Assembly: GCA_043817315.1 (NCBI GenBank)
Contig: JBDRGY010000004.1
Coordinates: 64,797-128,796, forward strand
Source of the DNA: Patescibacteria group bacterium
GTDB lineage: Bacteria; Patescibacteriota; Patescibacteriia; JBDRGY01
Direction of reading: 5' to 3'
Length of the DNA stretch: 64,000 nt
Shown in pieces: positions 10,492 to 51,800 of the stretch. Both the position numbers and the translations under genes were made by a program. The notes beneath the pieces were generated by a model that saw nothing but the letters and a program-made list of their open reading frames with translations, was not told where the DNA came from and searched no databases. Within the stretch, counting starts at the first letter, position 1, and every line of letters begins with the position of its first letter.

Positions 10492-10516
10492 AAAGTTAGT
10501 TACCTGAAGGGCTTCT

Positions 10517-10780: not shown

Positions 10781-10975
10781 TTCTCCAACTGCCTATCTTT
10801 TCTTTGGTCGCCCCTTCTTATGGTAAACATCCCCGTCCTCTGTTTATCATCGGATGGGAATTTAAGTAGAGGTAGGCAGATGAAGGATTGGAAACGTTTA
10901 GGACTTTGATTTCGTTTTCGAAGTAAGTTACGTTGTCGTTGTTGGTATGGCTTTCGCTAATTTTTTAGACATATT

Positions 10976-16223: not shown

Positions 16224-16311
16224 ACCCTTGGCGGGTTTTTTAATCTCTTGATTTTTACTAATTATAGTGGTAAGTTGGGGGGAGACGGGAGAAAATAACA
16301 GCGCCAAAGTC

Positions 16312-18413: not shown

Positions 18414-18416
18414 TTT

Positions 18417-26670: not shown

Positions 26671-27657
26671 ATGACACGGGGGAAATTCTACGAATTTTTA
26701 AATAAACTTAGGAAGGATTTTTTGTTAATCGGCCCCAAAAAAGAAAGGGGCGATTTATTTTTTTCCAAGTTGAATACAGCAAAAGAATTTGCCTTAACCG
26801 ACGAATTTCCTTTTTATCCGCCCAAAAAGTATTTAGTACCTCAAGCTGAGGTGCTTTTTGAGTTCCAGGGACATAAGTTGAAAGAAGTGCTGCCGGTAGT
26901 TAAAAATCAGATCCTGCTGGGGATTAACCTGACTGATTTAAAGGCAGTGATGCTATACGACCAGGTATTTGAAAAAGACCCCTATTATCAAAAAAGGCAG
27001 CAGGAAACAGTTATTACCGGGCAAACAGTCTTACCGGTAGAAAAAGGAACAGCCAATATCTTTGGTGAAAAACTGGAGGAGGATGTCTTGGAACATCTAA
27101 AGTTTGATATCCTTTTCGGAAAGCATAAAGATAAAATTAAATTCTTCACCGGTTCAGAGCAAGGACAGAATATCCTGGATAAATACAAAGTAAAGGATTA
27201 CCAGCACGTAAATTTCCAGGGACCGATTCCGGAACAGGGAGTAGCCGCCAAGGCGATAGCTGATTATAAAAAAGTGAAAAATTCGGCTGCGGCCAATGTC
27301 TGGGAAGAGTTGGGTAAAAAATGTATTGCCTGCGGCAAGTGCACCACGGTCTGTCCTACTTGCTTTTGTTTCCAAATCCTTGATAAGCCTTGTACTCAAC
27401 CCAACACTGGATTACGCTGCCGGGAATGGGATTCCTGTTTTTACAATAATTTTTCCAGGATAGCAGATGATCAAAAATTCCTGAAGTCAGTCAATGAGAG
27501 AATCTATTTTTGGTACCAACATAAATTTGTACGTATTCCTGAAGACTATCAATTTACCGTGCCAGGTTGTATCGGTTGTGGTCGTTGTATTAAAGTCTGC
27601 CCAGTGGGCATTGATATAAAAAAAGTGTTAGACAGTCTGAAACGATATGAAAAATAA
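26671..27657 (+). CDS. hydrogenase/sulfhydrogenase beta-type Fe-S subunit (2x[4Fe-4S]; AsrA/HydB-like)
   Basis: It has two ferredoxin-type Cys clusters, CIACGKCTTVCPTCFC and CIGCGRCIKVCP. It is linked to the gamma, delta and alpha subunits downstream. Confidence 0.6.
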   Translation: MTRGKFYEFLNKLRKDFLLIGPKKERGDLFFSKLNTAKEFALTDEFPFYPPKKYLVPQAEVLFEFQGHKLKEVLPVVKNQILLGINLTDLKAVMLYDQVFEKDPYYQKRQQETVITGQTVLPVEKGTANIFGEKLEEDVLEHLKFDILFGKHKDKIKFFTGSEQGQNILDKYKVKDYQHVNFQGPIPEQGVAAKAIADYKKVKNSAAANVWEELGKKCIACGKCTTVCPTCFCFQILDKPCTQPNTGLRCREWDSCFYNNFSRIADDQKFLKSVNERIYFWYQHKFVRIPEDYQFTVPGCIGCGRCIKVCPVGIDIKKVLDSLKRYEK

Positions 27658-28474
27658 TTACCAAACTAAAGAAGCCAAAATAGTGGATATCAAACCAGAA
27701 GCACCTGGTCTTAACATGTACACTTTACAGTTAATATCGGCGGCCGAACGCAATTCATTCCGCTTTGACCACGGTCAGTTTATGGAATTCAGCTTGCCGG
27801 GTTATGGCGAATCACCGTTTGATGTTTGTTCTACCCAGGAAATTATTAAAAAGAAACTGATCCAAGTTTGCGTTCGTAAGGTAGGTAGAGTTACTGAAAG
27901 GATTCACCAGCTAAAAAAAGGCGATTTAGTGGGGATACGCGGACCATACGGTTACGGTTGGCCTACTATTTCCCAATTGAAAAAGAAAAATGTCTTGGTG
28001 ATTGGCGGTGGCATCGGTTTGATCCCCATGCGCTCAATTGTCGAAGAATTATGCGGACAGCCCGACTGGAAAAAGAAACTGACAGTTTTTTATGGGGCGC
28101 GTAACACCAAGGAATTTATTTTTAAGGACAGGTATAAGTATTGGAAACAGCACTCTGACTTAAGAATCACCATTGATTGCCAAGAAAAAGCCTGGGCCGG
28201 CTGTACCGGAGTAATCACAGTTTTGTTCGACCAATGCGAAGTTAATGAAGATACCTATGCCTTAGTTTGCGGACCGCCTATCATGTTTAAGTTCGTTTTA
28301 GCCAAATTGAAAAAGGCTCGCCTCCCCGAAAAAAACATTTTTCTTTCTCTGGAACGCCGCATGGATTGCGGAGTCGGTATTTGCCAGCACTGTGCTATTG
28401 GTCCCTATTATGTCTGTAAAGACGGACCGGTGTTTCGCTACGACAAAATTAAGAACATAGGAGGAGCTATTTAA
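27647..28474 (+). CDS. hydrogenase gamma-type FAD/NAD(P)-binding subunit with C-terminal [2Fe-2S] (PyrK/HydG-like)
   Basis: 275 aa. It has an FAD-binding beta barrel (RFDHGQFMEF), an NAD-binding motif (VLVIGGGIGLIPM), and a C-terminal CGVGICQHC...C cluster. Confidence 0.65.
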   Translation: MKNNYQTKEAKIVDIKPEAPGLNMYTLQLISAAERNSFRFDHGQFMEFSLPGYGESPFDVCSTQEIIKKKLIQVCVRKVGRVTERIHQLKKGDLVGIRGPYGYGWPTISQLKKKNVLVIGGGIGLIPMRSIVEELCGQPDWKKKLTVFYGARNTKEFIFKDRYKYWKQHSDLRITIDCQEKAWAGCTGVITVLFDQCEVNEDTYALVCGPPIMFKFVLAKLKKARLPEKNIFLSLERRMDCGVGICQHCAIGPYYVCKDGPVFRYDKIKNIGGAI

Positions 28475-28475
28475 A

Positions 28476-28676
28476 ATGTGTTTAGTCATACCCTCACAAG
28501 TAAAAAAAATAAATGAGAAACTAGCGGTTGTTGATCACCAGGGCCAGGAGAAAACGGTTCAGGCCGATTTGGTTAAAGTAAAAGTAGGGGATTGGGTATT
28601 TACCCAGGCCGGGTTTATCGTTAAAAAATTATCAAAATCAGAAGCATTAAAAACATTGGAGTATTATGAAAAATAA
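28476..28676 (+). CDS. hypC: hydrogenase maturation chaperone HypC/HupF family
   Basis: 66 aa. The MCLVIPSQV N-terminus is the hallmark MCL[AG]IP of HypC. Confidence 0.7.
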   Translation: MCLVIPSQVKKINEKLAVVDHQGQEKTVQADLVKVKVGDWVFTQAGFIVKKLSKSEALKTLEYYEK

Positions 28677-29562
28677 AGGTCTTATCTTAGTCTTAACCAC
28701 GGCGATCATCTCCGGCTTTTCTATTTACTTCAACAAGTTTGCCATCAAGATGAATTCACCGTATATTTTTGCCGGTTTGAAAAATCTAATAGTGGGCATA
28801 TTTTTTATCGCCTTGACCACAGGGGTCGGTCAATTAGTGGAATTCCGTAAATTGAAGAAGCAAGATTGGTTAAAGCTTGTACTGATCGGCTTGATCGGCG
28901 GTTCCATTCCCTTTCTGCTATTTTTTCAAGGCCTATCCATGACCACAGCTGCTTCAGCCTCATTTATTCACAAAACAATGTTTCTATGGGTGGGGTTGCT
29001 GGCCATTTGGTTTCTAAAAGAGAAATTAAACAAGAATCTGTGGATAGCCATCCTGTCCATCTTGGTCGGTAACGTCTTGCTGCTCAAGATGCAAAATATC
29101 AGTTTAAACTGGGGCGATGGTTTAATTTTGTTGGCCACTTTATTTTGGGCCGCGGAGATCACTTATTCTAAAAAAGTACTTACCAAGTTATCACCCAGAA
29201 TGGTCAGCTTTGGCCGCATGTTCTTCGGCAGTTTGTTTATTCTGGCCTTTTTGGCAGTCACTGGCCAACTAACTTTAATTGGCAGCTTAAGTACGGCTCA
29301 ATGGGGTTGGGTGATGTTTACCTCGGTGTTTTTAATCGGCTACGTGGGTACTTTTTATCACGGTTTGAAATGGGTCAAAGCTTCTACAGCTACTGCCATT
29401 TTAGCCTTGGGTGCGCCCATTACAGCAGTCTTACAGGCTATCTTCAGCCACCAAATATTGATAAACATGCAGTGGCTGGGCCTGGGTCTGATCGGTTTAG
29501 GTACAGCCTTTTTTATTGTTCAACAAATTAAGACAAACGGATGGAAGTTACCCAACAACTAA
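28666..29562 (+). CDS. EamA-family (DMT superfamily) transporter
   Basis: 298 aa with about 10 TM helices arranged as two EamA-like repeats. Confidence 0.65.
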   Translation: MKNKGLILVLTTAIISGFSIYFNKFAIKMNSPYIFAGLKNLIVGIFFIALTTGVGQLVEFRKLKKQDWLKLVLIGLIGGSIPFLLFFQGLSMTTAASASFIHKTMFLWVGLLAIWFLKEKLNKNLWIAILSILVGNVLLLKMQNISLNWGDGLILLATLFWAAEITYSKKVLTKLSPRMVSFGRMFFGSLFILAFLAVTGQLTLIGSLSTAQWGWVMFTSVFLIGYVGTFYHGLKWVKASTATAILALGAPITAVLQAIFSHQILINMQWLGLGLIGLGTAFFIVQQIKTNGWKLPNN

Positions 29563-30317
29563 TTAAAAATTTAGCCCGAGCGCGTCTATCCGCTTATCCG
29601 AATTTTGAAAAGATTGAACTGGATCCTGCGGCAATGGTTATTTTAACCCGTTTGTTTTTGAATCCCGACTGCATTTCCGACATTGATTTGGGGAAGCTAA
29701 CCACCCAAGCCACTGTTAAGTTGTGTGATTTAGCCAAGCATATTGTAACAGCCGCACCGGTGACCATTGCCCAATACTGCGAGCAACACAACAAGTTGCT
29801 GGTAACGGAAAAAGACATGATTCTCTGTTTCGGTTTGGATCATATTGATTCGGTTTTTAGGAACAAAGTGCATGAGTCGGACAATCCCCAAGTGGCTCTG
29901 GCCCACATCCTGACTGCCGGCAAAGTAAAATCAATTAAAAAAAATTTAGTAACCATGATTGTTCAGCTGGGTGAAGAAAAATCAGTCGAGCTGAAAAATG
30001 TCCTGATTCCCCGGGAGCTGACTATCAAAAAAGGCCAGACAGTTTGGCAGCATTACGGGGTGGTCATCGAAAAAGCGGAAGGCGATCTGGCGGAACAAGT
30101 CCGTTTTGGCCAGAAAGAAATCGGCTATTTCCAGAAAATACTGGGCCAAAACAACAAGAAAGTGATTGATTTCTCCGACCGTTCCATTTTCCAAAAAGAT
30201 CTTATTGGCGCTATTTTGTCCGAAGAAAGAGCCCTCAAGGCCAAAAAAAGTTTCAATGCCAAAAAGAAATTGGTTACCAATATTGATAAAGATATTAAGT
30301 TTGCCCAAGATGCCTAA
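29541..30317 (+). CDS. hypothetical protein
   Basis: 258 aa, soluble. It overlaps both neighbours. No motif was recognised. Confidence 0.4.
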   Translation: MEVTQQLIKNLARARLSAYPNFEKIELDPAAMVILTRLFLNPDCISDIDLGKLTTQATVKLCDLAKHIVTAAPVTIAQYCEQHNKLLVTEKDMILCFGLDHIDSVFRNKVHESDNPQVALAHILTAGKVKSIKKNLVTMIVQLGEEKSVELKNVLIPRELTIKKGQTVWQHYGVVIEKAEGDLAEQVRFGQKEIGYFQKILGQNNKKVIDFSDRSIFQKDLIGAILSEERALKAKKSFNAKKKLVTNIDKDIKFAQDA

Positions 30318-31098
30318 GAAGAAACCAGTTGTTGCCCTAGTCTCTCTATCCTGTTGCGAAGGATGTCTCTTTGCTATCTTCGATTTGCACGAGAGGTTTT
30401 TCAGTTTAGTCAAAGACTACGCCGAGATAGGGGAGTCGCAAATTACCCGCGAAACTTTCGGTAAAGGACCGTATGACATTGCTATCGTGGAAGGCACTCC
30501 CATTACCAAAGGCAACATCCAAGTTCTCAAAGAAGTCAGAAAACGTTCTAAAATATTAATTGCTTTGGGTGATTGTGCCACTCATGGTTGTGTTCAGTCT
30601 ATAAAAAACTACGTTGATAAAGAAAAAGCCATTAAGCACGTTTATAAAGACAGAAAGGGCATTGATAACCCGGATATCAAACCGATTAAAGACTTTGTTA
30701 AAGTAGATTATGAAATCCTGGGTTGCCCGGTTAACGCCGAAGAATTTATGGAAGCCTTCTTAGAATTAAGAGAAGGCCGGATGCCCAAGGCCCCAACCCC
30801 GCGTTCGGTTTGTTATGAATGCCAGGAAAGAGAAATTGAGTGTCTATTACAGCAAGGTGAAGCGTGTTTGGGTCCGGCTATCATTGGTGGCTGCGGTGCT
30901 ACTTGCCCCGAAGCCAAATATCGCTGCGAAGGCTGCCGCGGTGTGATCAAAGATAATCCAGGCTTACTAAATTTTGTTAAGCAACTGAAAAAAGTAGCTA
31001 CTCAAAAAGAGATAAATCATATATTAGAGAAGTTTGGGATTAGAAAAGAGTGGGAGGAAGAAATTAATAAAAGAAAGGAGAAAAAAAATGAAATATGA
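30310..31098 (+). CDS. [NiFe]-hydrogenase small (delta) subunit, group-3-like
   Basis: The NuoB-like N-terminus VALVSLSCCEGC is followed by distal Fe-S cysteines CYECQ...C....C and CGATCPEAKYRCEGC. The frame is open from 30166, but the ATG at 30310 gives the expected N-terminus. Confidence 0.7.
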   Translation: MPKKKPVVALVSLSCCEGCLFAIFDLHERFFSLVKDYAEIGESQITRETFGKGPYDIAIVEGTPITKGNIQVLKEVRKRSKILIALGDCATHGCVQSIKNYVDKEKAIKHVYKDRKGIDNPDIKPIKDFVKVDYEILGCPVNAEEFMEAFLELREGRMPKAPTPRSVCYECQEREIECLLQQGEACLGPAIIGGCGATCPEAKYRCEGCRGVIKDNPGLLNFVKQLKKVATQKEINHILEKFGIRKEWEEEINKRKEKKNEI

Positions 31099-31303
31099 CT
31101 GGAAAAATTGTTATAATTTATTTAAACCGATAAACACCCCGATATATTTGGGATTGGGTGTTATTTTTTTTCTGATCAGTCAAATACTGTTTATTCCTAT
31201 TTTTTTCTTCTTATCATTTTTTTTGGTATTTTTTGGATTTATTTCCCTTATATTAAATTTATTAGTTTTTCTATTTAGGGAGCGCAAGGTTAAAAAGAAG
31301 TAA
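31088..31303 (+). CDS. small hydrophobic protein, doubtful
   Basis: 71 aa, low complexity and Phe/Leu-rich. An AAAGGAG ribosome-binding site lies upstream. It may not be a real gene. Confidence 0.25.
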   Translation: MKYDWKNCYNLFKPINTPIYLGLGVIFFLISQILFIPIFFFLSFFLVFFGFISLILNLLVFLFRERKVKKK

Positions 31304-31318
31304 TTAATTTCTTATTTT

Positions 31319-32632
31319 ATGACCAACCAACCAAAAGGGAAAAGTCTGGTCGCTACGATCATAATTGTGGTTGCTTTGATTGCTATCGGCGTCGGTATTT
31401 ATCTCATTGACCAAAGCCGAACCAATGAAAACAGCAACAGCAACACTAACAACAACACTAACACTGCTGTAGTTACTAAGATTGACGATTCCCAAGCCAC
31501 TCCGGCCATGGTGGAAGAAGTAGTTGCAGGCATCAACGATTTTACTTTTGATCTTTATGCAAAACTTCAGGAGGAAGAGGGCAATCTTTTTTTCTCCCCC
31601 TACAGTATCTCTACCTGTTTAGCTATGACTTATGAAGGGGCTGAAGGCCAGACTGCCACTGAAATGCAAAAAGTCTTTAATTTCCCGACCGATGATACCA
31701 CCCGACAAGCCGGCTATGCTAGTATCTATAATGAAATAAACAAAGAAGACAAGGAATACACTCTAAGCACAGCCAACGCCCTCTGGGCTCAATTAGATTT
31801 CACTTTTCTAGATAAATATTTTGATCTGGTTGGAAAATACTATGGTGGCCGGGTTACCAATCTTGATTTTATTGACGACACCGAAAATTCCCGTGTCACT
31901 ATTAACGACTGGGTGGAAGATCAGACTAACGGTAAAATCACCGATCTGATTGCTCGCGGCGCAGTGGGTCCAGCCACCAGACTGGTTTTGACTAATGCTA
32001 TCTATTTTTACGGGGAATGGCTTAAGGAATTCCAGGAAGAAGATACCGAAGATGACGATTTTAGATTGACTCCAGAAAATACGATTCAGATTCCCATGAT
32101 GAAGAAAACCGGTACCAGTTTTAACTACGCTGAAAATGACCAATTGGAGCTACTAGAATTACCTTACAAAGGCGAAGAGCTGTCTATGATTTTCCTTCTT
32201 CCTCAAAATGATGACCTGTCCGGACTGCAGGAAACCTTAAGCGATGAACAGTTAATCGCTTGGAAAGATGACTTATTCAAGCAAAAAGTAAATATTTATA
32301 TACCCAAGTTTAAATTTGAAAAAAGTATTTCTCTAACTAATACATTGAAAGAAATGGGTATGCCCACCGCTTTCAATCGGGTCTTTGCCGATTTTTCCCA
32401 GATGAGTGAAGAAGAGCCATTGATGATAACAGACGTTGTTCATAAGGCCTTTGTAGAGGTCAATGAGAAGGGAACGGAAGCAGCGGCAGCAACCGGGACT
32501 ACGATAGGTATAGCAACCTCTGTTGAGCCACCTACTCCAGTTTTCCGGGCTGATCATCCTTTCCTCTTCCTGATTCAGCAGACTGACACTGGCAACATTC
32601 TGTTCCTGGGCCGGGTGTCAGATCCTCGTTAA
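31319..32632 (+). CDS. serpin-family serine protease inhibitor, membrane-anchored
   Basis: 437 aa. It has a TM helix, an Asn-rich linker (NENSNSNTNNNTNT), and a serpin body with the hinge and reactive-centre loop EKGTEAAAATGTTIGIATSV and the C-terminal FRADHPFLFLI. Confidence 0.85.
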   Translation: MTNQPKGKSLVATIIIVVALIAIGVGIYLIDQSRTNENSNSNTNNNTNTAVVTKIDDSQATPAMVEEVVAGINDFTFDLYAKLQEEEGNLFFSPYSISTCLAMTYEGAEGQTATEMQKVFNFPTDDTTRQAGYASIYNEINKEDKEYTLSTANALWAQLDFTFLDKYFDLVGKYYGGRVTNLDFIDDTENSRVTINDWVEDQTNGKITDLIARGAVGPATRLVLTNAIYFYGEWLKEFQEEDTEDDDFRLTPENTIQIPMMKKTGTSFNYAENDQLELLELPYKGEELSMIFLLPQNDDLSGLQETLSDEQLIAWKDDLFKQKVNIYIPKFKFEKSISLTNTLKEMGMPTAFNRVFADFSQMSEEEPLMITDVVHKAFVEVNEKGTEAAAATGTTIGIATSVEPPTPVFRADHPFLFLIQQTDTGNILFLGRVSDPR

Positions 32633-32647
32633 TTATTTCATAAAAAT

Positions 32648-34390
32648 ATGACTAGTAAACTCAAAAAAAACAGCAAGGTAATAATTATTGTCACTGTGGT
32701 TATTGTTGTTTTGGTCGGAGGGGCAATTTATTTGTTAAGTCGAAAAACGGAAACTGCTGAAGAAATTGTTAATTCCGTAGCCATTGTCAACGAAACTATA
32801 AATACTAATGATAATCTTAACAATCAATCTGTAAATCTGAACACCAACCAAGCGTTGAATCAAAATACCAATCAAGCGGTAAGTGCTTCCAGTCAATATC
32901 CGGCCAATGATTGGGCGGTCTATAATGATGTAAATTATGATTATTCATTGATGTATCCGGCAGACTGGACGGATGAAAGAGCAGCCGTTGCTTCGGCAGT
33001 AGAGATTAATTCAAATGTTCTTAATACAAATTCTGATGTGTATTTTGAGCAATATTTTATGGATCAAGGTGAAAAATATGGAGAATTTATTATTGTCGAG
33101 GGATCAAATTGGACCCCATCCCTAAAAGGCAATTGGAGTTCCCAAGAATCAGAAATGGAAGTGGGGGGAATAGCAGCAACCAAAACAATTTACACCCCTA
33201 CCGACTTAGAAGAATGGGATACTAATCCTGGCACCAAGACCAAAATAGTTTTTACTGAACCGTTGCCGATCGATAAGACTATTGAAATCGGCCTGGAGAA
33301 TAAAAATAACAGCCAGATTACAGCCGATGTGCTAGCCGGCATATTATCCTCTTTTCAGTTTGATTATCGATTCCCAGCCGTTAGTTCCTTTTGGATCAGG
33401 ACTCTCGGGGATGTTGAAACAGGTTCAAGTTTAGGCACCTTTGATTTAACTACTGGTGAAATTATAGAGTCAAGAGTCTATCCAACTCAAACTATGTTTT
33501 CTTTCAATATTATTCCCAATCCTGAAGCGGGCAAAGTTGCATACTACCAATACAACAGTGAAGAAGAGTCGTACGATATTATTTTGTCAGATACCAAAGG
33601 ATTGGAAGATAAAATTATTGCTAATGGAGTTGTCTGTGTAGATGGTCCTTGTGATTTTGAGAATGCAGTGGCTCTAGGAGAATTATCTAAGGATGGAAAC
33701 TACTTTTCTTATTTTGATCACAATGAAGTTAAAGTGCAGAATTTGATAACCGATGAGGTTACTGTATTGCCTGATTCTTATTCAACAAGCACCAGTTTTT
33801 CACCTATGGGTAATTATATTTTTTCTAGATGGCAAAGAGAATATGACTCTGCTATTCAATACAGCAAAATTTCAGATATAAGTACGACCAAAATTGAAGG
33901 AACAGAATGGAATACAGCTTTTTCTTTTAATGAAAAATATTTAGCTTCGTCTAAGCAACAATATGATTCAGAAACAGAGGGTCATTCTGTAGATATTTAT
34001 CTTTACAACGTACTCACGGGTGATCTGGTTGATCAAATGACCATAGCTGATTATTCACAAACAGGAACAACTAATCTGGCCTGGTTGACCAATGACCGGT
34101 TCGTAGTACTTGCCGAAAAGGATAATTCGACTAAAGAAGCTTTTTTGATAGAAATTATTAATAATAAAATGGTAAGAAGAAGTTTGTCTACTAGTACGGG
34201 AGAGAAGGTAAAGGGGGAGAGAATTTTCCGTATAGACTCAGATAGCGTGTTGCTAGACTACATGGTCGATAATAAATATTCCATATATTCTTACGATATA
34301 AACGGTGATAAGGAAATAATATTTGAAGACGTTACTGATGGTGAAAAATGGTATTCTTATAAATACTATCTTCTGGGTCCAAACGATTAA
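32648..34390 (+). CDS. membrane-anchored extracellular protein, hypothetical
   Basis: 580 aa. It has a TM helix, an Asn/Gln-rich linker, and a large beta-rich domain. Confidence 0.5.
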   Translation: MTSKLKKNSKVIIIVTVVIVVLVGGAIYLLSRKTETAEEIVNSVAIVNETINTNDNLNNQSVNLNTNQALNQNTNQAVSASSQYPANDWAVYNDVNYDYSLMYPADWTDERAAVASAVEINSNVLNTNSDVYFEQYFMDQGEKYGEFIIVEGSNWTPSLKGNWSSQESEMEVGGIAATKTIYTPTDLEEWDTNPGTKTKIVFTEPLPIDKTIEIGLENKNNSQITADVLAGILSSFQFDYRFPAVSSFWIRTLGDVETGSSLGTFDLTTGEIIESRVYPTQTMFSFNIIPNPEAGKVAYYQYNSEEESYDIILSDTKGLEDKIIANGVVCVDGPCDFENAVALGELSKDGNYFSYFDHNEVKVQNLITDEVTVLPDSYSTSTSFSPMGNYIFSRWQREYDSAIQYSKISDISTTKIEGTEWNTAFSFNEKYLASSKQQYDSETEGHSVDIYLYNVLTGDLVDQMTIADYSQTGTTNLAWLTNDRFVVLAEKDNSTKEAFLIEIINNKMVRRSLSTSTGEKVKGERIFRIDSDSVLLDYMVDNKYSIYSYDINGDKEIIFEDVTDGEKWYSYKYYLLGPND

Positions 34391-34408
34391 GAATTTATAA
34401 AAAATATT

Positions 34409-35506
34409 ATGAATGAACAACAACCAGCCAGCAAAAACAACAAATCAATAATTATCATTGTCATTGTGGTAGTGGTGCTGGCTTTGGGATTCGGGGTGTA
34501 CTTTTATTTTTTCCGGGCAGATGAAACTAACGAGAATGCTAATACCAACACCAATACAGTAGCCAACCAAAATCAAAATATAAATCAGAATGTTAACGCC
34601 AGCTTGCCAGCTTTTACCAAAACTTGTGATTACGACACGGACTGTGAATTAAGACTAGGCTGTACAGAAGCTGATTGTTATAACGTAGCTGCAGCAGAAG
34701 TTCTTTATGATTGTGACAAGACGTTAAACCCCATAGTAACTGACAATCTGTCATGCGTTTGTGCTGAAAAAGAATGTACGGTTTCAGAAGAAGAGGAGAC
34801 AACCAATACCAATCAAAACGCCAACACTAATCAGTCAGTCAATGCTAATACCAATCAAGATGTGGAAGCCACTGGCTCGACAACAACACCAATAGATTCT
34901 ACCTGGAATCTATACACCAATAATGATCTGGGGTTTTCTATCAATATTCCGGTTGAAGCTTATTTCTATTACGCTTCCTGTGACTGGCGAGATGATTCTT
35001 ACCGGCCAGGGAGTGGTATGGTACCGGTCAGTACTTTTGCCACAGATGACTCAGTATATATCAATCAAGAATATTTATATGAACTAGGCGGAGCAACCGA
35101 GGTTGGTGGTATAACTAATTATTCTGAATGCAACCGGGTGGAAAATTCGGTTTCCCGTTTATCGTCAGAAATTCGCACCTGGAACATTAAAGTAGCCACA
35201 GTGGAAGATGAAGTTGTCTTGGAAGATTTTATCAATGATACTTTCGGCGAAGGTGGTTGTAGTCTAGGCGATCAAACTGCCTGGGAGCATCAAGATGGAG
35301 TTTATGAGGTTCGGATTGAAACTGATGGTTTAGACCCAGAAGAATCGCGTTGTTTTATTAATTACGCGGTAAATATTTTCTACTATCCGGCCGGCAATAA
35401 AGTAATGACTTGGGATTTAGGACAGGATATTTCTTTCCCAGCTGACAGTGCTGTCTCTGCCTTCTACGATACTGATATGACGAATAGTTTTCGATTTTTG
35501 GAATAA
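34409..35506 (+). CDS. membrane-anchored Cys-rich extracellular protein (paralog A)
   Basis: It has a TM helix, an NTNTN linker, and the module KTCDYDTDCELRLGCTEADCY...YDCDKTL...LSCVCAEKECTVSEEEE. Confidence 0.5.
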   Translation: MNEQQPASKNNKSIIIIVIVVVVLALGFGVYFYFFRADETNENANTNTNTVANQNQNINQNVNASLPAFTKTCDYDTDCELRLGCTEADCYNVAAAEVLYDCDKTLNPIVTDNLSCVCAEKECTVSEEEETTNTNQNANTNQSVNANTNQDVEATGSTTTPIDSTWNLYTNNDLGFSINIPVEAYFYYASCDWRDDSYRPGSGMVPVSTFATDDSVYINQEYLYELGGATEVGGITNYSECNRVENSVSRLSSEIRTWNIKVATVEDEVVLEDFINDTFGEGGCSLGDQTAWEHQDGVYEVRIETDGLDPEESRCFINYAVNIFYYPAGNKVMTWDLGQDISFPADSAVSAFYDTDMTNSFRFLE

Positions 35507-35522
35507 TTAACCAAAAATATAT

Positions 35523-36341
35523 ATGAGTATGACCACCAAAGGATTCAACGCAGTTATCGGGGTGATTGTGGTCTTGGTTCTGGGTATCGGTGTAGCGGTT
35601 AGTTACTACGTCTATTACCAGAGTACTGAGGTTGAAGTAAATACCGTCGACACCAATACAACGGTAAATCAGAATACCAATACCAGTTTGCCAGCCGGAA
35701 CCAAAACTTGTAAGCACAACTTTGACTGTGAAGTAAAATATGATTGTGAACAATATGATTGTTATCATAAAGATGCACCACCCGAGTTTAAATGTGATCC
35801 TACCCTAGTGGATGTTCCCAGCTCATCAAATTATTACTGCGTTTGTGCCGAGAAGGAGTGTGCTTTAGTAGAAGAAGATGATGTCACAGCTGATTGGCAG
35901 ACGTATGCTAGCGAGGATTATGGCTATTCAATCAAATACCCAAACGATTGGCTAACGAACATGGAATACATCAATCAGAGCAATCTGTATTTATTAACTC
36001 AAGAAAGAAAACAAGACCTAGATGACGGAAGAATTGTTAGAGTTTTTGACGTAATGGTTAAAGTATATGGAACTGCTGTCGAACTTCCCCATAATTCTGA
36101 TGATCAATTGAATTTTGAAAATTGGATTGATCAGAAGGCTGATACCTGGGGTTTTATTAACCGAGAATCCGTACTGATTGATGGTATAACTGGTTATCAA
36201 GGAATTGGTTCTGGTGATGGAACTAGCTATATTAGTTATATTGAAAAGGATGGCTATATTTATGAAATTCAAACAGGTGATACTGATGTTCCAACAGAAA
36301 CAGAACAGTTAGTTATTGACTCTTTCCAATTCACTGACTAA
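35523..36341 (+). CDS. membrane-anchored Cys-rich extracellular protein (paralog B)
   Basis: It has the same module as paralog A: KTCKHNFDCEVKYDCEQYDCY...FKCDPTL...YYCVCAEKECALVEEDD. Confidence 0.5.
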   Translation: MSMTTKGFNAVIGVIVVLVLGIGVAVSYYVYYQSTEVEVNTVDTNTTVNQNTNTSLPAGTKTCKHNFDCEVKYDCEQYDCYHKDAPPEFKCDPTLVDVPSSSNYYCVCAEKECALVEEDDVTADWQTYASEDYGYSIKYPNDWLTNMEYINQSNLYLLTQERKQDLDDGRIVRVFDVMVKVYGTAVELPHNSDDQLNFENWIDQKADTWGFINRESVLIDGITGYQGIGSGDGTSYISYIEKDGYIYEIQTGDTDVPTETEQLVIDSFQFTD

Positions 36342-36349
36342 AAAAACCA

Positions 36350-37606
36350 ATGAAAATAAAAATTGACCACATCTGTAAAATAGAAGGACACGCTGATTTT
36401 ATCGCTGACATTGAACGTGGTGATGTTAAAACAGCGCGGTTTCGGACCCTGGAAGGCGCCCGCCTGATTGAGGGTATTCTGATTGGCCGCAAATACATCG
36501 AACCGACCATAATTACCCCCAGAATCTGCGGTATTTGCCCGGTAGTGCACAATTTAACCTCGACTAAGGCGATTGAGGCTTGTTTCGATATCGAGCCCAC
36601 AGAACAGGTTATTTTACTGCGAAAAATCTTAGAATTGGCCCAGTTTATCCATTCTCACGGCATTCATCTATTCTTCCTGACCTTGCCTGATTTCTTCAAG
36701 ATAAAAACAGAATTAAAGATGTTAGAAAAATTTCCTAAAGAAGCCCAGATGGCTATCCGGGTTCGTAATTTCGGAGTGGATCTGGTCAAAGTAATCGGCG
36801 GTCGGACCGTTCATCCAATTACCACAGAAATCGGCGGCATTAAGCGCCTGCCCGACCGCAAGGCCCTACACGAGATATTAAGCCGTTATGATTCAGTAAT
36901 GGAAGATGCCTTAGCTTTGGCTAAAGTGTTTGCCGGATTAGAATATCCAGAACTGTTCCGCAAACAGGACTACATGTCTTTACACAATTCTTCGGAATAC
37001 GCCATCTACGACGGCGATGTGATGTCATTGCACGGAACCAAAATTCCGGCCAGTAAATTCATGCACAGTATTGAAGAAGTGAAGCGACCTTATGAATTAA
37101 TCAAGCACGCCAAGTATCGTGGCGATTCCTATTTTGTAGGTGCCATTGCCCGAATAAATAACAACCAAAGTCAACTGAACCCAGTAGCTACAAAAGTGTT
37201 GCGCAGTAGCGGCCTCAAATTCCCTTCATATAACAATTTTCACAACATCATGTGCCAGGCCATTGAGTTAGTACACTGTCTCGAGGAATCTAAAAAGTTA
37301 CTAAACCAGTATTTTAAACAACGCAGTCAGAAGCTAAACGTACCGGTTAAGGTCAAAGCCGGCAGGGGAGTGGGAGCGGTTGAAGCACCGCGCGGTACTT
37401 TGTATCATTATTACGAAACGGACAAGAACGGTTTCATCACCGATTGTAATATTATTACCCCGACTGCCCAGCAAGTTCCCAACCTGGAACAGGATCTAAA
37501 AACCTGGATTCCCAATGTGATGCAGTTGGACGAGAAGACTAGAGTCCAGGAAATCCGCAAGTTGATTCGGGCTTATGACCCCTGCATGACTTGTGCTACT
37601 CATTAA
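36350..37606 (+). CDS. [NiFe]-hydrogenase large (alpha) subunit, group-3-like
   Basis: 418 aa. It has the L1 motif RICGICPVVH and the C-terminal L2 motif DPCMTCATH. Confidence 0.85.
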   Translation: MKIKIDHICKIEGHADFIADIERGDVKTARFRTLEGARLIEGILIGRKYIEPTIITPRICGICPVVHNLTSTKAIEACFDIEPTEQVILLRKILELAQFIHSHGIHLFFLTLPDFFKIKTELKMLEKFPKEAQMAIRVRNFGVDLVKVIGGRTVHPITTEIGGIKRLPDRKALHEILSRYDSVMEDALALAKVFAGLEYPELFRKQDYMSLHNSSEYAIYDGDVMSLHGTKIPASKFMHSIEEVKRPYELIKHAKYRGDSYFVGAIARINNNQSQLNPVATKVLRSSGLKFPSYNNFHNIMCQAIELVHCLEESKKLLNQYFKQRSQKLNVPVKVKAGRGVGAVEAPRGTLYHYYETDKNGFITDCNIITPTAQQVPNLEQDLKTWIPNVMQLDEKTRVQEIRKLIRAYDPCMTCATH

Positions 37607-37616
37607 TAATCATACC

Positions 37617-37695
37617 ATTGCGATCCCGCGCCAGCGGGAGAAGCAATCCCGTTACTACACCGGGATCGCCACGCCCCTATGGGGCTCGCGATGGT
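37617..37695 (+). promoter_or_regulatory. GC-rich structured intergenic element with nested inverted repeats
   Basis: gcgatcccg pairs with cgggatcgc. There are inner stems cccgc/gcggg and gcccc-tat-ggggc. The element lies between hydA and the hypA-like gene in an otherwise AT-rich context. Confidence 0.3.
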
Positions 37696-37709
37696 AGGAA
37701 GAAAACAAT

Positions 37710-37964
37710 ATGCACGATTTAATGGCAGCTCAAGAGTTACTAAAAACAGCATTAGAAGTAGCTCGCGACAAAAAATTAAAGAAGATTACCAAGATTATTG
37801 TTGAGCTTGGCACTGTTATCGATCACGACGAAGAAATTACCGAGGAGAACATCAGTTTTAATCTAAAGAACCTCAGCGTCGGAACAGAGGCTGAGGGGGC
37901 TTCTGTTATTGTCCACAAAGTTGCCGGTAATCATTACATTCTCAAAGAGATCGAGGGTGACTAA
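37710..37964 (+). CDS. HypA-like protein lacking the zinc-finger
   Basis: 84 aa. The N-terminus MHDLMAAQELLKTALEVARDKKLKKITKIIVELGTV resembles HypA (MHE.S.A..I........A......V..V.L.IG). There is no CxxC...CxxC motif. Confidence 0.4.
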   Translation: MHDLMAAQELLKTALEVARDKKLKKITKIIVELGTVIDHDEEITEENISFNLKNLSVGTEAEGASVIVHKVAGNHYILKEIEGD

Positions 37965-40084: not shown

Positions 40085-41352
40085 TGAGCAAAATTGCTAA
40101 AATCCACTCTTTGGAAATTTTAGATAGCCGGGGCTATCCCACTATCAAAGCCAAAGTCTATTTGGAAAACGGCGTTTGGGGCGGTGCCTCGGTACCGGCC
40201 GGTGCTTCCAAGGGAAAAAGTGAATCGACTGAACTTCGAGACGGTGACACAAGACGTTATCAGGGTAAGGGGGTGAAAAAGGCCATTTCTATAATAAATA
40301 CCCGCATTCAGCGCTTATTAAAGGGCGTGGACATCAATCTGATGCGGGAGATTGATAATAAAATGATCGAAAGTGACGGCACCAAGACCAAATCGGATAT
40401 GGGGGCCAACACCATCTTGGCCGTTTCTCTGGCCTGTGCCCGGGCCGGTGCTCTGCAAAATCAGAAACCGCTGCACCAGCACATCCGGGAAGTCTATGGC
40501 CTTGGTTTCAAAGACTATCAGTTACCCCTGCCCATGATTAATATTATTAACGGGGGCAAACACGCTGACAGCCGGACTAATATCCAGGAATATATGATAA
40601 TACCCAAGGCTGATAAATATTCGGAAATCATCCGCTACGGGGCTGAGGTTTTTCATCAGCTCAAAGAGATTCTAAGAGCCAAAGGGTTGTCAACCGGAGT
40701 GGGAGACGAAGGAGGATACGCTCCCCATTTTGAAAGCAATGAAATGCCTTTTCAGTTAATCCTGGAAGCGGTTTCTCAAGCCAACATGACAGCCGGAGAA
40801 CAGATTACTCTTGGCATCGATGCCGCGGCCGATAATTTTTATAACCAAGAGCAGAAAAAATATTTTCTGGAATTAGAAAATTCTTCACTGACTTCAGAGC
40901 AGCTGGCCGCCCTCTATTCGGAATGGGCCAACAAGTATCCGATTATTTCTGTGGAAGACGGTTTAGCTGAAGAAGACTTGGATGGCTGGGCCCTGCTCAA
41001 TAGTAAGCTGGGCAATAATATTTTGGTGGTAGGAGATGATCTCTTTGTTACTGATCAAGAAAGATTGAAAATAGGAGTAGCCAAGTCATTAGCCAACGCC
41101 ATCATTATCAAGCCCAATCAAGTGGGCACCCTGACGGAGACAATCGATTGTGTCCAGTTGGCTCAAGCCAACAAGTTTAAAGTAATTGTCTCAAACCGGT
41201 CTGGAGAGACCTGTGACAACTTTATTGCCGATCTGGCCATTGCGGTCAAAGCTGATTTTATCAAAACCGGTTCAATGTGCAGAGGGGAAAGAATAAGTAA
41301 ATATAATCGACTATTGGAAATCGAGGAGGAACTAACTCAAAATGAAGGCTAA
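40084..41352 (+). CDS. eno: enolase
   Basis: 422 aa. It has ILDSRGYPT, SVPAGASKGKSESTELRDGD, and the enolase metal- and substrate-binding layout. Confidence 0.9.
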   Translation: MSKIAKIHSLEILDSRGYPTIKAKVYLENGVWGGASVPAGASKGKSESTELRDGDTRRYQGKGVKKAISIINTRIQRLLKGVDINLMREIDNKMIESDGTKTKSDMGANTILAVSLACARAGALQNQKPLHQHIREVYGLGFKDYQLPLPMINIINGGKHADSRTNIQEYMIIPKADKYSEIIRYGAEVFHQLKEILRAKGLSTGVGDEGGYAPHFESNEMPFQLILEAVSQANMTAGEQITLGIDAAADNFYNQEQKKYFLELENSSLTSEQLAALYSEWANKYPIISVEDGLAEEDLDGWALLNSKLGNNILVVGDDLFVTDQERLKIGVAKSLANAIIIKPNQVGTLTETIDCVQLAQANKFKVIVSNRSGETCDNFIADLAIAVKADFIKTGSMCRGERISKYNRLLEIEEELTQNEG

Positions 41353-42904
41353 TAGACCTTTTTTACTTCTGATCTTAGACGGCTGGGGGATTGCTCCGGC
41401 CAGCAAGGGTAATGCTATTAATCTGGCTAAAACTCCTGTCATCGACCGGCTAAGTAAGAAATACCCCCATACTACCCTGTGTGCCTCAGGTCCTTGTGCT
41501 GGTCTACCCAAAAACCAGGTGGGTAATTCTGAAGCCGGGCATATGAATATCGGGAGCGGAAGGGTAGTGGATCAGGAAGAGATGATCATTACCGAAAGCG
41601 TTGACGACGGTACTTTTTTCAGAAACCCGGCTTTTATAGAGGCGGTTAATCATGTCAAAAGGAACAAAACCAGTCTCCATATCATGGGACTATTGACCTA
41701 TGACCAGAGTCCCCATGCCGACCCAGAACATTTAATGGCTATTATCAAGTTGGCCCGCCAGCACCATTTACCCAAAGTAGTGCTACATTTATTTACTGAT
41801 GGCCGTGATTCACCCCAATTCGCTGCTATCAAGATTGTAAAGGATCTGGAAAAAAAGCTTTATAGTAATGAGATGATCGCTACTATAATGGGCCGTTTTT
41901 ATGCCATGGACCGTAATAAAGCCTGGAAGCGTACCGAAAAAGCGTATAACGCTATGGTTTTAGGCAAGGGGATCAAGGCTGGCTCAGCCGAAGAAGCTAT
42001 TTTGCATGCCTATAACCGTAAAGAGACAGATGAATACATCCAGCCCACAATCTTGATGCAGGACCACAAACCACCTCAAACCATACAAAACGGTGACTCC
42101 ATAATATTCTTCAATTTTCGGTCTGATAGAGCCAGGCAGATTACCAAAGCTTTCGTTCAAAAGAAATTCAACAAGATGAACCCAGGTTCATTCATCCGCA
42201 AAAAAGCCTTACGGGATTTACGGTTTATTGCTATGACTGATTTTGGTCCTGATCTGGACAATGTCTTGACTGCCTTTCCTTCTGAAGACCTGGAAGAAAC
42301 TCTGCCCATGCAATTAGCTGATTTAAAACAACTCTATACTTCGGAAAGCGAGAAGTTCGCGCATGTTACTTACTTTTTTAACGGAGGGTATGCTGATCCG
42401 GTAGGTGGTGAATCCAGGATTATGATACCCTCACCTTCTGTTGAATCATATGCTGAGGTTCCAGAGATGAATATTGAAAAATTGACCAAGGCAGTCCTCA
42501 AACATATCAAAAATGATGAATTCGATTTTATCACCTGCAATTTCCCCAATCCCGATATGGTGGGACATACGGGTAATCTTAAGGCCGGCATCCAAGCCGC
42601 TGAGGCAGTTGATAAGCATACGGGACTTTTGGTAAGGGAGGTACAGGCAAAAAATGGGAAGGCAATTATTACTGCTGATCATGGCAACTTGGAAAACATG
42701 ATAAATCTAAAAACGCAGGAAGTCCATACGGAACACACTACCAACCCAGTACCTTTTATAGTGGTAAGCCAGGACAGTAAGGGGTTCTCTTTAGGCAAAA
42801 AGGGTATCTTGGCCAATATTGCCCCGACAATTTTAGACTTGATGGAGAGAGATATCCCCAAACAGATGAAGAGTAAGAGTTTGATCAGAAAGAAAGCAAG
42901 ATAA
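41342..42904 (+). CDS. gpmI: 2,3-bisphosphoglycerate-independent phosphoglycerate mutase, copy 1
   Basis: 520 aa. It has LLILDGWGIAP, NSEAGHMNIGSGRVV, and a C-terminal MVGHTGN. Confidence 0.85.
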   Translation: MKANRPFLLLILDGWGIAPASKGNAINLAKTPVIDRLSKKYPHTTLCASGPCAGLPKNQVGNSEAGHMNIGSGRVVDQEEMIITESVDDGTFFRNPAFIEAVNHVKRNKTSLHIMGLLTYDQSPHADPEHLMAIIKLARQHHLPKVVLHLFTDGRDSPQFAAIKIVKDLEKKLYSNEMIATIMGRFYAMDRNKAWKRTEKAYNAMVLGKGIKAGSAEEAILHAYNRKETDEYIQPTILMQDHKPPQTIQNGDSIIFFNFRSDRARQITKAFVQKKFNKMNPGSFIRKKALRDLRFIAMTDFGPDLDNVLTAFPSEDLEETLPMQLADLKQLYTSESEKFAHVTYFFNGGYADPVGGESRIMIPSPSVESYAEVPEMNIEKLTKAVLKHIKNDEFDFITCNFPNPDMVGHTGNLKAGIQAAEAVDKHTGLLVREVQAKNGKAIITADHGNLENMINLKTQEVHTEHTTNPVPFIVVSQDSKGFSLGKKGILANIAPTILDLMERDIPKQMKSKSLIRKKAR

Positions 42905-49609: not shown

Positions 49610-49641
49610 TAATTAAATTACGGTTTCGGTGGTAAGAAATA

Positions 49642-50217: not shown

Positions 50218-50241
50218 AAAAATGTTACTTTGATATTTAAT

Positions 50242-50736: not shown

Positions 50737-50759
50737 AAAAAATTGATTAACGATATTTA

Positions 50760-51248: not shown

Positions 51249-51277
51249 TAATCAAAACCCTTTGATATTTATTTTAG

Positions 51278-51799: not shown

Positions 51800-51800
51800 A

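What the first reader, a model, noticed from the sequence alone, without database searches (positions are those of the whole stretch)
31319..36341. Cassette of membrane-anchored extracellular proteins with Asn-rich linkers: a serpin plus two paralogs sharing an 8-Cys module
Four consecutive genes begin with a signal-anchor helix followed by low-complexity N/T/Q-rich linkers (NTNNNTNT, NQNTNQ, NANTNTNT, NTVDTNTTVNQNTNT). The first is a complete serpin with a reactive-centre loop. Genes 3 and 4 share a conserved cysteine module, KTC.[YH].[FD]DCE....C...DCY....[YF].CD.TL......C.CAEKEC..VEE. Together with the A2M-like protein and a secreted M23 peptidase in this window, the organism invests heavily in surface protease inhibitors and surface enzymes. 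That fits an episymbiotic or host-associated lifestyle.
Basis: partly seen in the sequence, partly recalled or inferred. Interest (0 to 1): 0.6.

Follow-up and report, generated by a model that had tools for sequence, protein, structure and literature searches.

The report
Surface serpin cassette with orphan Cys module
An uncultured Patescibacteria bacterium carries four adjacent genes for membrane-tethered surface proteins (a protease-inhibiting serpin plus three binding-type proteins, two mounted on a previously undescribed 8-cysteine mini-domain), and close relatives keep the serpin and the mini-domain but swap the outer domains.

Summary
Four tightly packed + strand genes (31319-36341) each start with one hydrophobic anchor followed by an Asn/Thr/Gln-rich spacer. 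Only these 4 of 53 ORFs in the window have such spacers, and Asn is 4.8% of the window's proteins, so the spacers are not a composition artefact.

- **Gene 1** is a full-length serpin with a canonical inhibitory hinge. Predicted P1 is Ala399.
- **Genes 3 and 4** share a 55-65-residue module with 8 invariant Cys. It has no Pfam, PDB-sequence or Foldseek match. It occurs in only 5 true clusters among 1.84 billion representative proteins. It is under strong purifying selection (dN/dS about 0.02).
- **Module architecture:** it is fused to at least six different outer domains and once stands alone.

The source is a Patescibacteria MAG. In four related lineages (five contigs) the cassette lies directly upstream of the [NiFe]-hydrogenase large-subunit gene wherever that side of the contig is visible. 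In the window it splits the hydrogenase small- and large-subunit genes. Serpin and module persist while the outer domains are replaced.

Best reading: a lineage-specific, modular surface-display locus with a protease shield. The serpin and the linkers are ordinary. The Cys module and the locus behaviour are new but of narrow distribution.

The parts
30310..31098 (+). Left flank: group-3b-type [NiFe]-hydrogenase small (delta) subunit. The likely start is the ATG at 30310 inside the longer TTG ORF 30166-31098.
   Evidence: Pfam Oxidored_q6 1.4e-22. NCBIfam ShyD 3.9e-46, below the equivalog cut-off. The start is inferred from where the family matches begin and from the 'MPKKKPVVALVSLSCCEGC' sequence.
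31088..31303 (+). Possible small (71 aa) membrane protein with two hydrophobic segments, just upstream of the serpin gene. Not verified as a gene.
   Evidence: ORF listed. An AAAGGAG motif lies 8 nt upstream of the ATG at 31088. Hydrophobic windows at residues 33-83 of the longer ORF. No family match.
31319..32632 (+). Gene 1: membrane-anchored serpin, 437 aa. Anchor about residues 9-31 (nt 31343-31411). Asn-rich linker residues 33-52 (nt 31415-31474). Serpin domain residues 72-436.
   Evidence: Pfam Serpin 5.5e-122, full length. Best solved relatives are 8gxv (1.7e-86) and the clade-B serpins SERPINB1, B3 and B4. Anchor. Linker has 8 Asn of 20 residues.
32465..32560 (+). Serpin hinge and reactive-centre loop, residues 383-414: EKGTEAAAATGTTIGI[A]TSVEPPTPVFRADHP. 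Predicted P1 is Ala399 (nt 32513-32515) and P1' is Thr400.
   Evidence: P17 Glu at residue 383. The hinge is conserved and the loop is variable in 6 homologues.
32648..34390 (+). Gene 2: anchor (about residues 11-30), Asn/Gln/Thr linker (residues 44-82, nt 32777-32893), then a domain of about 160 aa that opens with the DW..Y....YS..YP.DW motif, then about 340 aa matching no family.
   Evidence: hhalign against the PsbP_2-type outer domains gives 95.5% probability, but over only the 23-residue entry motif. No Pfam hit and no PDB sequence hit. The only homologue apart from the identical NCBI entry is P0011 at 47% identity.
34409..35506 (+). Gene 3: anchor (about residues 13-35), linker 1 (residues 37-64, nt 34517-34600), Cys module, linker 2 (residues 126-160, nt 34784-34888), then an outer domain of about 205 aa with 4 further Cys.
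   Evidence: The outer domain is shared with P0009, which has no Cys module. No Pfam hit.
34601..34795 (+). 8-Cys module of gene 3 (residues 65-129).
   Evidence: BLASTP against gene 4 gives 6e-16. AlphaFold2 mean pLDDT 83.4, two beta-hairpins. All 8 Cys are invariant in 8 sequences. dN/dS 0.02 against the L001 orthologue.
35523..36341 (+). Gene 4: anchor (about residues 8-31), linker (residues 33-54, nt 35619-35684), Cys module, then a PsbP_2-type outer domain (residues 116-268, nt 35868-36326).
   Evidence: Pfam PsbP_2 6e-07, 30.1 bits against a cut-off of 27. AlphaFold2 mean pLDDT 85.4. Foldseek finds PsbP/CyanoP at 4e-06 and also Apa, DcrB and Tsi3. NCBI names the identical protein 'PsbP-related protein'.
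35685..35879 (+). 8-Cys module of gene 4 (residues 55-119).
36350..37606 (+). Right flank: [NiFe]-hydrogenase large (alpha) subunit, starting 8 nt after gene 4. This is the conserved anchor point of the cassette in relatives.
   Evidence: Pfam NiFeSe_Hases 1.3e-34. NCBIfam ShyA 3.2e-77. It is 90% identical to the gene that follows the cassette in L026 and L032. L002 ends with 80 nt of it at 95% nt identity.

Best explanation
This is a lineage-specific, modular cell-surface display locus of a Patescibacteria (CPR) bacterium.

Each of the four proteins is inserted N-in/C-out by an uncleaved signal-anchor helix. A disordered Asn/Thr/Gln-rich spacer then holds a folded ectodomain away from the membrane, presumably across the wall or S-layer.

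Gene 1 displays an inhibitory serpin. Its small aliphatic P1 (Ala399; Val, Ser or Thr in relatives) would irreversibly trap elastase- or subtilisin-like serine proteases arriving from outside. That would shield the cell's own surface proteins.

Genes 2-4 display binding-type outer domains. Gene 4's is a PsbP/Mog1 fold. The domains of genes 2 and 3 share only that family's entry motif.

In genes 3 and 4 the outer domain sits on an autonomous module of about 55-65 residues with 8 Cys, made of two beta-hairpins. It is most likely locked by four disulfides.

The serpin and at least one Cys-module protein form the conserved core of the locus. The outer domains are exchanged between relatives by recombination behind a conserved anchor, as expected for determinants of partner or host contact.

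The cassette is read together with the hydrogenase genes that flank it.

Shown here: gene structure, serpin membership, hinge type, module conservation and rarity, PsbP fold of gene 4, mosaic divergence, conserved position.

Inferred: topology, disulfides, protease target, adhesion or host-contact role, co-transcription.
For: **Architecture**
- Each protein has one N-terminal hydrophobic span, with Lys-rich residues before it and acidic residues after it.
- Asn-rich spacers occur only in these 4 of 53 ORFs.
- Homologues elsewhere have spacers of similar composition but different sequence. A Gracilibacteria serpin has a Pro/Glu-rich spacer instead.

**Serpin**
- Full-length Pfam match.
- Hinge is EKGTEAAAAT, with P1 Ala by the 17-residue rule.
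- The hinge is invariant and the loop variable across 7 homologues.
- CPR homologues carry a transmembrane anchor, and two DPANN homologues carry lipobox-like signals.
- Membrane-anchored prokaryotic serpins are a recognised class (PMC8233489).

**Cys module**
- All 8 Cys are invariant in 8 sequences, with 64% mean column identity.
- dN/dS is 0.02 against 0.15 for the gene 3 outer domain and 0.03 for hydA.
- AlphaFold2 gives the same two-hairpin fold in two independent models, at pLDDT 83-85.
- It is fused to six different C-terminal regions.
- It occurs alone in the complete 120-aa protein P0014.
- Extra conserved Cys in the gene 3 outer domain and Cys-containing pilin-like proteins in the window fit extracellular disulfides.

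**Outer domain of gene 4:** PsbP fold.

**Locus behaviour**
- L002 reads serpin, Cys-module protein, PsbP-like protein, hydA.
- L032 reads serpin, Cys-module-only protein, hydA, hypA-like, hydrolase, PGK, enolase.
- L026/L027 read Cys-module protein, Cys-module protein, hydA.

**Mosaic divergence against L001**
- The first 75 codons of gene 2 are 99% identical (dS 0.42). The remainder is 42% identical with dS saturated.
- The gene 4 anchor is 100% identical, followed by an unrelated outer domain.
Against: - No signal-peptide or topology predictor was available, so cleavage of the N-terminal segment cannot be excluded.
- Disulfide bonding is not shown.
- No candidate target protease is encoded in the window.
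- dN/dS values are all well below 1, so there is no direct sign of positive selection. The evidence for exchange of outer domains rests on four related lineages (five short contigs).
- All genes of 120 aa or more in the 64 kb lie on one strand, and promoter and terminator scans were at chance level. Adjacency to the hydrogenase genes may therefore carry no functional meaning.
- The existence of a module-only protein (P0014) means the module is not merely a pedestal for an outer domain.
Confidence: 0.55

Rival explanations
1. The 8-Cys module is itself a small disulfide-rich canonical protease inhibitor, or a cofactor of the serpin. The conserved core would then be a two-inhibitor protease shield, and the variable outer domains would be secondary additions.
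For: - The serpin and a Cys-module gene are adjacent in every contig where both positions are visible: the window, L001, L002 and L032.
- In L032 the module is the only ectodomain of its protein.
- Its size, 8 Cys, two conserved beta-hairpins and two variable, lower-confidence loops are typical of small inhibitor scaffolds (my own knowledge).
- Purifying selection is strong.
Against: - No match to any Pfam inhibitor family even at E up to 10.
- No PDB sequence hit at E up to 10.
- No Foldseek match in PDB or BFVD better than E 1.6.
- The Cys spacing (x5, x5, x4, x10-11, x13-14, x1, x4) does not fit the WAP, Kazal or pacifastin patterns as I recall them.
- No reactive-site loop can be identified.
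Confidence: 0.17
2. The Cys module is a metal-binding (Zn or Fe-S) domain that works with the neighbouring hydrogenase. For example, it could tether or mature the enzyme at the membrane, which would explain why it always lies just upstream of the large-subunit gene.
For: - A Cys-module gene lies 8-10 nt upstream of hydA in the window, L026/L027 and L032. In L002 the Cys-module gene lies one gene further upstream.
- The module has eight invariant Cys and several invariant acidic residues.
- The hypA-like gene downstream lacks its Zn-binding half.
Against: - Charge distribution around the anchor predicts that the module is outside the cell.
- The serpin and PsbP-type domains have the same anchor-plus-linker layout, and both are extracytoplasmic families.
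- There is no CxxC or CxxCxxC motif.
- In L002 a PsbP-like protein without the module lies next to hydA.
- The whole window is co-directional and tightly packed, so adjacency is weak evidence.
Confidence: 0.06
3. These are ordinary, unrelated exported proteins that happen to be neighbours. The linkers are compositional noise and the shared Cys stretch is a recent local duplication with no function of its own.
For: - The region's GC content is a little lower than its flanks (0.36-0.43 against 0.41-0.45).
- Part of the serpin linker is encoded by a short AAC-rich tandem repeat, which could arise by slippage.
- The family is tiny.
Against: - Asn is 4.8% of the window's proteins, and only these four ORFs have Asn-rich segments, always directly after the anchor.
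- The module is retained with all 8 Cys in relatives whose PGK is only 68% identical, at dN/dS 0.02.
- The serpin-module linkage and the position next to hydA recur in four other lineages (five contigs).
Confidence: 0.05

Closest known systems
Membrane-anchored prokaryotic serpins (Pfam PF00079, MEROPS I4; 'hub' serpins resembling animal clade B, e.g. SERPINB1)
   Same: Full-length serpin domain. Canonical inhibitory hinge (P17 Glu, P15 Gly, P14 Thr, P12-P9 Ala). Best solved matches are 8gxv and the clade-B serpins. Membrane-anchored forms are reported for prokaryotes only (PMC8233489).
   Different: - It is tethered by a transmembrane helix plus an Asn-rich spacer rather than a lipobox or a cleaved signal peptide.
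- It is fixed in a cassette with an orphan Cys-module protein.
- Its nearest relatives are split between CPR bacteria (56-58% identity) and DPANN archaea (51-54%).
- No activity data exist.
PsbP_2 / PsbP-Mog1-fold extracytoplasmic proteins (PF18933; PsbP, CyanoP, M. tuberculosis Apa, DcrB, Tsi3)
   Same: Gene 4 residues 116-268 pass the Pfam cut-off and fold as PsbP. Homologues P0002-P0004 have the same anchor, linker and outer-domain layout.
   Different: - Here an 8-Cys module is inserted between the linker and the PsbP domain. It is absent from P0002-P0004.
- The outer domains of genes 2 and 3 share only the 20-residue entry motif and are not demonstrable members.
Small disulfide-rich extracellular modules (WAP four-disulfide core, Kazal, pacifastin, LDL-receptor class A)
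   Same: About 55 residues, 8 invariant Cys, mostly beta structure, extracellular, used as a building block in several architectures.
   Different: No sequence or fold match to any of them. The Cys spacing differs and there is no adjacent CC pair. Distribution is limited to one small Patescibacteria clade.
Low-complexity wall-spanning spacers of Gram-positive surface proteins (Pro/Thr-, Ser/Asp- or Asn-rich regions)
   Same: The position directly after the membrane anchor and before the folded domain. Composition is conserved but sequence is not.
   Different: These proteins are anchored at the N-terminus by a helix rather than at the C-terminus by sortase. The LPAxT motif that opens the Cys module is not part of a C-terminal sorting signal.

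Membership tests
Serpin (PF00079 / MEROPS I4), inhibitory type | Full-length serpin domain above the family threshold | tested here: met
   408 bits against a cut-off of 27, covering profile positions 3-370 of 370. 193 PDB serpin sequences match at E<1e-20.
Serpin (PF00079 / MEROPS I4), inhibitory type | Hinge consensus allowing loop insertion (P17 E, P15 G, P14 T/S, P12-P9 small residues) | tested here: met
   E383-K-G-T-E-A-A-A-A-T. The consensus itself is from my own knowledge of serpins.
Serpin (PF00079 / MEROPS I4), inhibitory type | Formation of a covalent, SDS-stable complex with a target protease, and identity of P1 | not testable with these tools
   P1 Ala399 is predicted only by residue counting. 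The HMMER alignment to SERPINB1 would instead place P1 two residues later, at Ser401.
PsbP_2 (PF18933), gene 4 | Pfam score above the gathering cut-off, and a PsbP/Mog1 fold | tested here: met
   30.1 bits against 27. The AlphaFold2 model (pLDDT 85.4) matches PsbP/CyanoP at E 4e-06 to 1e-04 with probability 1.00.
PsbP_2 (PF18933), genes 2 and 3 | Pfam score above the gathering cut-off, or a profile match over the whole domain | tested here: not met
   No PsbP_2 hit even at E up to 10. hhalign matches only 19-23 residues of the entry motif. The gene 2 orthologue P0011 scores 21.4 bits, below the cut-off.
Known Cys-rich inhibitor or adhesion modules (WAP, Kazal, pacifastin, LDLa, EGF) | Match to a family profile or to a solved fold | tested here: not met
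   - Pfam: none at E up to 10 apart from noise.
- PDB profile search: none at E up to 10.
- Foldseek: best E 3.6 in PDB and 1.6 in BFVD.
Metal-binding Cys clusters (zinc ribbon, ferredoxin-type Fe-S) | CxxC or CxxCxxCxxxC spacing | tested here: not met
   The spacings are x5, x5, x4, x10-11, x13-14, x1 and x4. Metal content itself cannot be tested here.
Sortase (LPXTG) substrates | C-terminal LPXTG followed by a hydrophobic segment and a basic tail | tested here: not met
   An LPAxT-like string lies at the N-terminal edge of the module. The proteins end in acidic residues, and no C-terminal hydrophobic segment was found.
Type II signal-anchor membrane proteins (N-in, C-out) | Single uncleaved N-terminal helix with a positive-inside charge bias | tested here: inconclusive
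   There is one hydrophobic span of about 20-24 residues, Lys before it, acidic residues after it and no obvious AxA site. No dedicated predictor was available, so cleavage was not tested.

The most novel reading that the evidence does not exclude
The 8-Cys module founds a new family of membrane-tethered small disulfide-rich proteins that works together with the serpin, as a second inhibitor or as a docking or cofactor partner. The fixed serpin-plus-module core with exchangeable outer domains would then be a host-contact and protease-shield organ of this CPR clade. Its expression would be hard-wired to fermentative energy metabolism, because it is nested in the hydrogenase operon. The pilin-like array nested in the pyruvate:ferredoxin oxidoreductase operon would be a second case of the same arrangement.
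Probability: 0.15. Interest if true: 0.65.

Novelty: new variant of a known kind. Interest (0 to 1): 0.42.

Why it matters
CPR/Patescibacteria bacteria are thought to live attached to other cells, but the molecules that make and protect that contact are mostly unknown.

This locus offers a compact, testable candidate with three parts: a tethered serpin conserved across relatives, an orphan cysteine module under strong constraint, and outer domains that differ between close relatives. That pattern is what one expects of specificity determinants.

The locus also shows surface-protein arrays nested inside operons for cytoplasmic redox enzymes. If that is general, it would say something about how these tiny genomes organise expression.

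The limits are clear. The serpin and linkers are ordinary, the module is confined to a handful of metagenomic contigs, and no function has been measured.

Tried and rejected
1. **Composition artefact for the linkers.** Rejected: Asn is 4.8% of the window's proteins, GC is about 0.42, and only these four ORFs carry such segments.
2. **Wider family for the Cys module.**
   - A profile search of 1.84 billion representatives gave 8 hits. Three of them (P0012, P0013, P0015) are spurious matches to short repeats in long repetitive proteins.
   - The JGI metagenome scan returned only the already known contig.
4. **Pacifastin-like idea, prompted by PMC13388995.** The Cys pattern does not fit and no fold hit supports it.
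5. **Gene 2's C-terminal 340 aa as a relative of the L026 Cys-module protein's C-terminal region.** No similarity was found.
6. **Locating the window's own contig.** Exact-protein look-up found nothing on record.
7. **Promoter and terminator scan.** It gave counts at chance level and so says nothing about operon structure.
8. **Literature searches.** Searches for serpins in CPR or DPANN and for PsbP-like proteins in Patescibacteria found nothing specific.
9. **Positive selection.** Pairwise dN/dS is below 0.25 everywhere it could be estimated. The divergence of the outer domains is better described as replacement than as fast point evolution.

Full report
**1. The observation**

The four ORFs are present as described, all on the + strand:

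| Gene | Coordinates | Length |
|---|---|---|
| Gene 1 (serpin) | 31319-32632 | 437 aa |
| Gene 2 | 32648-34390 | 580 aa |
| Gene 3 | 34409-35506 | 365 aa |
| Gene 4 | 35523-36341 | 272 aa |

- The genes are separated by 15-18 nt.
- Each protein has one strongly hydrophobic N-terminal span (Kyte-Doolittle mean 2.75-3.19 over 19 residues). Lys residues precede it and acidic residues follow it.
- The quoted linker strings are all found.
- Asn is 23-40% of each linker but 4.8% of the 19,176 residues encoded by the window's 53 long ORFs. No other ORF has an Asn-rich segment, although about 20 others have hydrophobic N-termini.
- Window GC is about 0.42.
- Only part of the serpin linker is encoded by a detectable short tandem repeat.

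**2. The serpin**

- Gene 1 matches Pfam Serpin over the whole profile at E 5.5e-122.
- Its closest solved relatives are 8gxv and the clade-B serpins SERPINB1, B3 and B4.
- The hinge, E383-KGTEAAAAT, is the inhibitory consensus.
- Counting 17 residues from P17 puts P1 at Ala399 and P1' at Thr400, with Ile at P2 and P4.
- HMMER's alignment to SERPINB1 would shift P1 to Ser401. Either way the residue is small and uncharged, which suggests elastase- or subtilisin-like targets. This is an inference.
- Homologues keep the hinge but vary the loop. The residue at the counted P1 position is Val, Ser, Thr, Lys, Thr and Thr.
- No S1 or S8 protease is encoded in the window.

**3. The Cys module**

*Conservation.* Genes 3 and 4 align over about 118 alignment columns that include the module, at E 6e-16. 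Eight sequences from five lineages keep all 8 Cys plus D14, Y27, P44, V53, A55, E56, E58 and E63.

*Rarity.*
- A profile search of 1.84 billion representative proteins returned only five genuine clusters.
- A scan of JGI metagenomes added nothing.

*No known relative.*
- Pfam, the PDB sequence profile search, and Foldseek against PDB and BFVD gave no match.

*Predicted fold.* AlphaFold2 predicts the same two beta-hairpins in the isolated gene 3 module (pLDDT 83.4, though 3 of 5 models were poor) and in the gene 4 model.

*Selection.* Against the L001 orthologue the module has dN/dS 0.02. That is comparable to hydA (0.03) and lower than the gene 3 outer domain (0.15).

*Architectures.* The module is fused to at least six different C-terminal regions:
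- gene 3,
- gene 4,
- P0005,
- P0008,
- L001:3010-3717,
- L026:3-782.

In P0014 it is the only ectodomain of a complete 120-aa protein. It is therefore an autonomous domain and not only a pedestal.

**4. The outer domains**

- Gene 4 residues 116-268 are a PsbP_2 domain by Pfam (30.1 bits against a cut-off of 27) and by fold.
- P0002-P0004 have the same outer domain, anchor and linker but no Cys module.
- Genes 2 and 3 share only the DW..Y....YS..YP entry motif with this family and have no Pfam or PDB match. Their folds remain unknown.

**5. Source and relatives**

Source databases hold identical proteins from a Patescibacteria group MAG: contig of 136,977 bp, locus tags ABIB97_03250 and ABIB97_03255.

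Gene order in the window and the related contigs:

| Contig | Gene order |
|---|---|
| Window | hydD, small ORF, serpin, gene 2, gene 3 (Cys), gene 4 (Cys), hydA |
| L001 | serpin tail, gene 2, gene 3, gene-4-like with another outer domain |
| L002 | serpin, P0005 (Cys module + PsbP_2), 221-aa PsbP-like protein, hydA start |
| L026/L027 | Cys-module protein, P0008, hydA |
| L032 | serpin, P0014, hydA, hypA-like, hydrolase, PGK, enolase |

Identities to the window:

| Protein | Identity |
|---|---|
| hydA | 90% |
| PGK | 68% |
| Serpin | 64-71% |

Against L001 the divergence is mosaic:
- The first 75 codons of gene 2 are 99% identical (dS 0.42). The remaining 487 codons are 42% identical with dS saturated.
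- The gene 4 anchor is 100% identical and is followed by an unrelated outer domain.

This pattern indicates replacement of ectodomains behind conserved anchors.

**6. Genomic setting**

The cassette lies between the small (30310-31098) and large (36350-37606) subunit genes of a group-3b-type [NiFe] hydrogenase. The beta and gamma subunit genes lie at 26671-28474. They are separated from the delta subunit gene by a transporter gene and an unknown gene.

All genes of 120 aa or more in the 64 kb are on one strand. Promoter and terminator scans are at chance level. Co-transcription is therefore plausible but unproven, and adjacency alone is weak evidence for a functional link.

**7. Interpretation**

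The best-supported model is a modular surface-display locus with these elements:
- a signal-anchor,
- a disordered Asn/Thr/Gln spacer,
- an optional Cys module,
- an outer domain,
- a tethered inhibitory serpin acting as a protease shield.

The conserved core is the serpin plus the module.

Rival readings:
- **Module as a second inhibitor or serpin partner.** Not excluded. Co-occurrence and the module-only variant favour it, and the absence of any family or fold match counts against it.
- **Module as a metal site serving the hydrogenase.** Unlikely on topology and Cys spacing.
- **Chance neighbours.** Largely refuted.

**8. Comparison with what is known, and novelty**

- Membrane-anchored prokaryotic serpins are a recognised category (PMC8233489).
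- Anchored PsbP_2 proteins and low-complexity spacers are also known kinds.
- New here are the orphan 8-Cys module, its shuffling among outer domains, its fixed pairing with a serpin, and the nesting of the cassette in a hydrogenase operon.
- The distribution is very narrow and no function has been measured, so I rate this a new variant of a known kind, of moderate interest.

Noticed in passing
window 26671-37964: The group-3b-type [NiFe]-hydrogenase gene set is interrupted twice. An EamA-type transporter gene and an unknown 258-aa ORF lie between the gamma and delta subunit genes. The serpin cassette lies between delta and alpha. The second interruption is conserved in relatives, on the hydA side at least.
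   Followed up: partly
window 47973-53098: The pyruvate:ferredoxin oxidoreductase genes are split in the same way. A porA-like gene (47973-49046) is followed by five tandem type IV pilin-like genes (49043-51799; N_methyl motif shown for the first, GFTLVELLVV-type N-termini in all five). Then come porB-like (51801-52526) and porG-like (52523-53098) genes. This is a second surface-protein array nested in an operon for a cytoplasmic redox enzyme.
   Followed up: no
window 3642-8957 (protein residues 1017-1145): The anchored A2M-like protein (1771 aa) carries a Hint/intein-like insertion between its bait-region and A2M domains. The insertion starts with Cys1017 and ends ...VHN1145, followed by Asp rather than Cys, Ser or Thr. 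That resembles a bacterial intein-like (BIL) domain rather than a splicing intein. The protein has only two Cys and no CxEQ thioester motif.
   Followed up: partly
L005, L006, L007 (match 10001-11200 in each): After two Patescibacteria/Gracilibacteria sequences (56-58% identity), the serpin's next closest genome-database relatives are DPANN archaea: an unclassified archaeon MAG with a DPANN-like serpin (L005, 52%), Woesearchaeota 54% and Undinarchaeota 51%. Typical bacterial serpins come after them at 34-45%. L005 and L006 carry lipobox-like signals; L007 was not inspected. This may reflect exchange between the two groups of ultra-small symbionts.
   Followed up: partly
L032 592-954: P0014 is a complete 120-aa gene encoding only an anchor, a linker and the Cys module. 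It sits between the serpin gene and hydA, with 7-8 nt to the hydA start. It is a natural variant with no outer domain.
   Followed up: yes
window 37710-37964: The hypA-like ORF is only 84 aa. It starts MHD and contains no Cys, so it lacks the zinc-binding half of HypA. An 83-aa orthologue (87% identity) occupies the same position in L032.
   Followed up: partly
window 16267-19094 and 23448-26255: Three consecutive ORFs match only the 7TM sensor region of histidine kinases (HisKA_7TM), with no kinase-domain hit. A full 935-aa 7TM-GAF-HisKA-HATPase kinase and a response regulator lie further downstream.
   Followed up: no
window 41342-44485: Two tandem paralogous genes encode cofactor-independent phosphoglycerate mutase (iPGM). 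They lie within a glycolysis and acetate-formation gene run: PGK, enolase, iPGM x2, PfkB kinase, PTAC, acetate kinase.
   Followed up: no
window 1-64000: Every ORF judged a likely gene (the 53 taken from the 66 ORFs of 120 aa or more) lies on the + strand. No tRNA genes were found. One RNase P RNA lies at 61594-62072.
   Followed up: no
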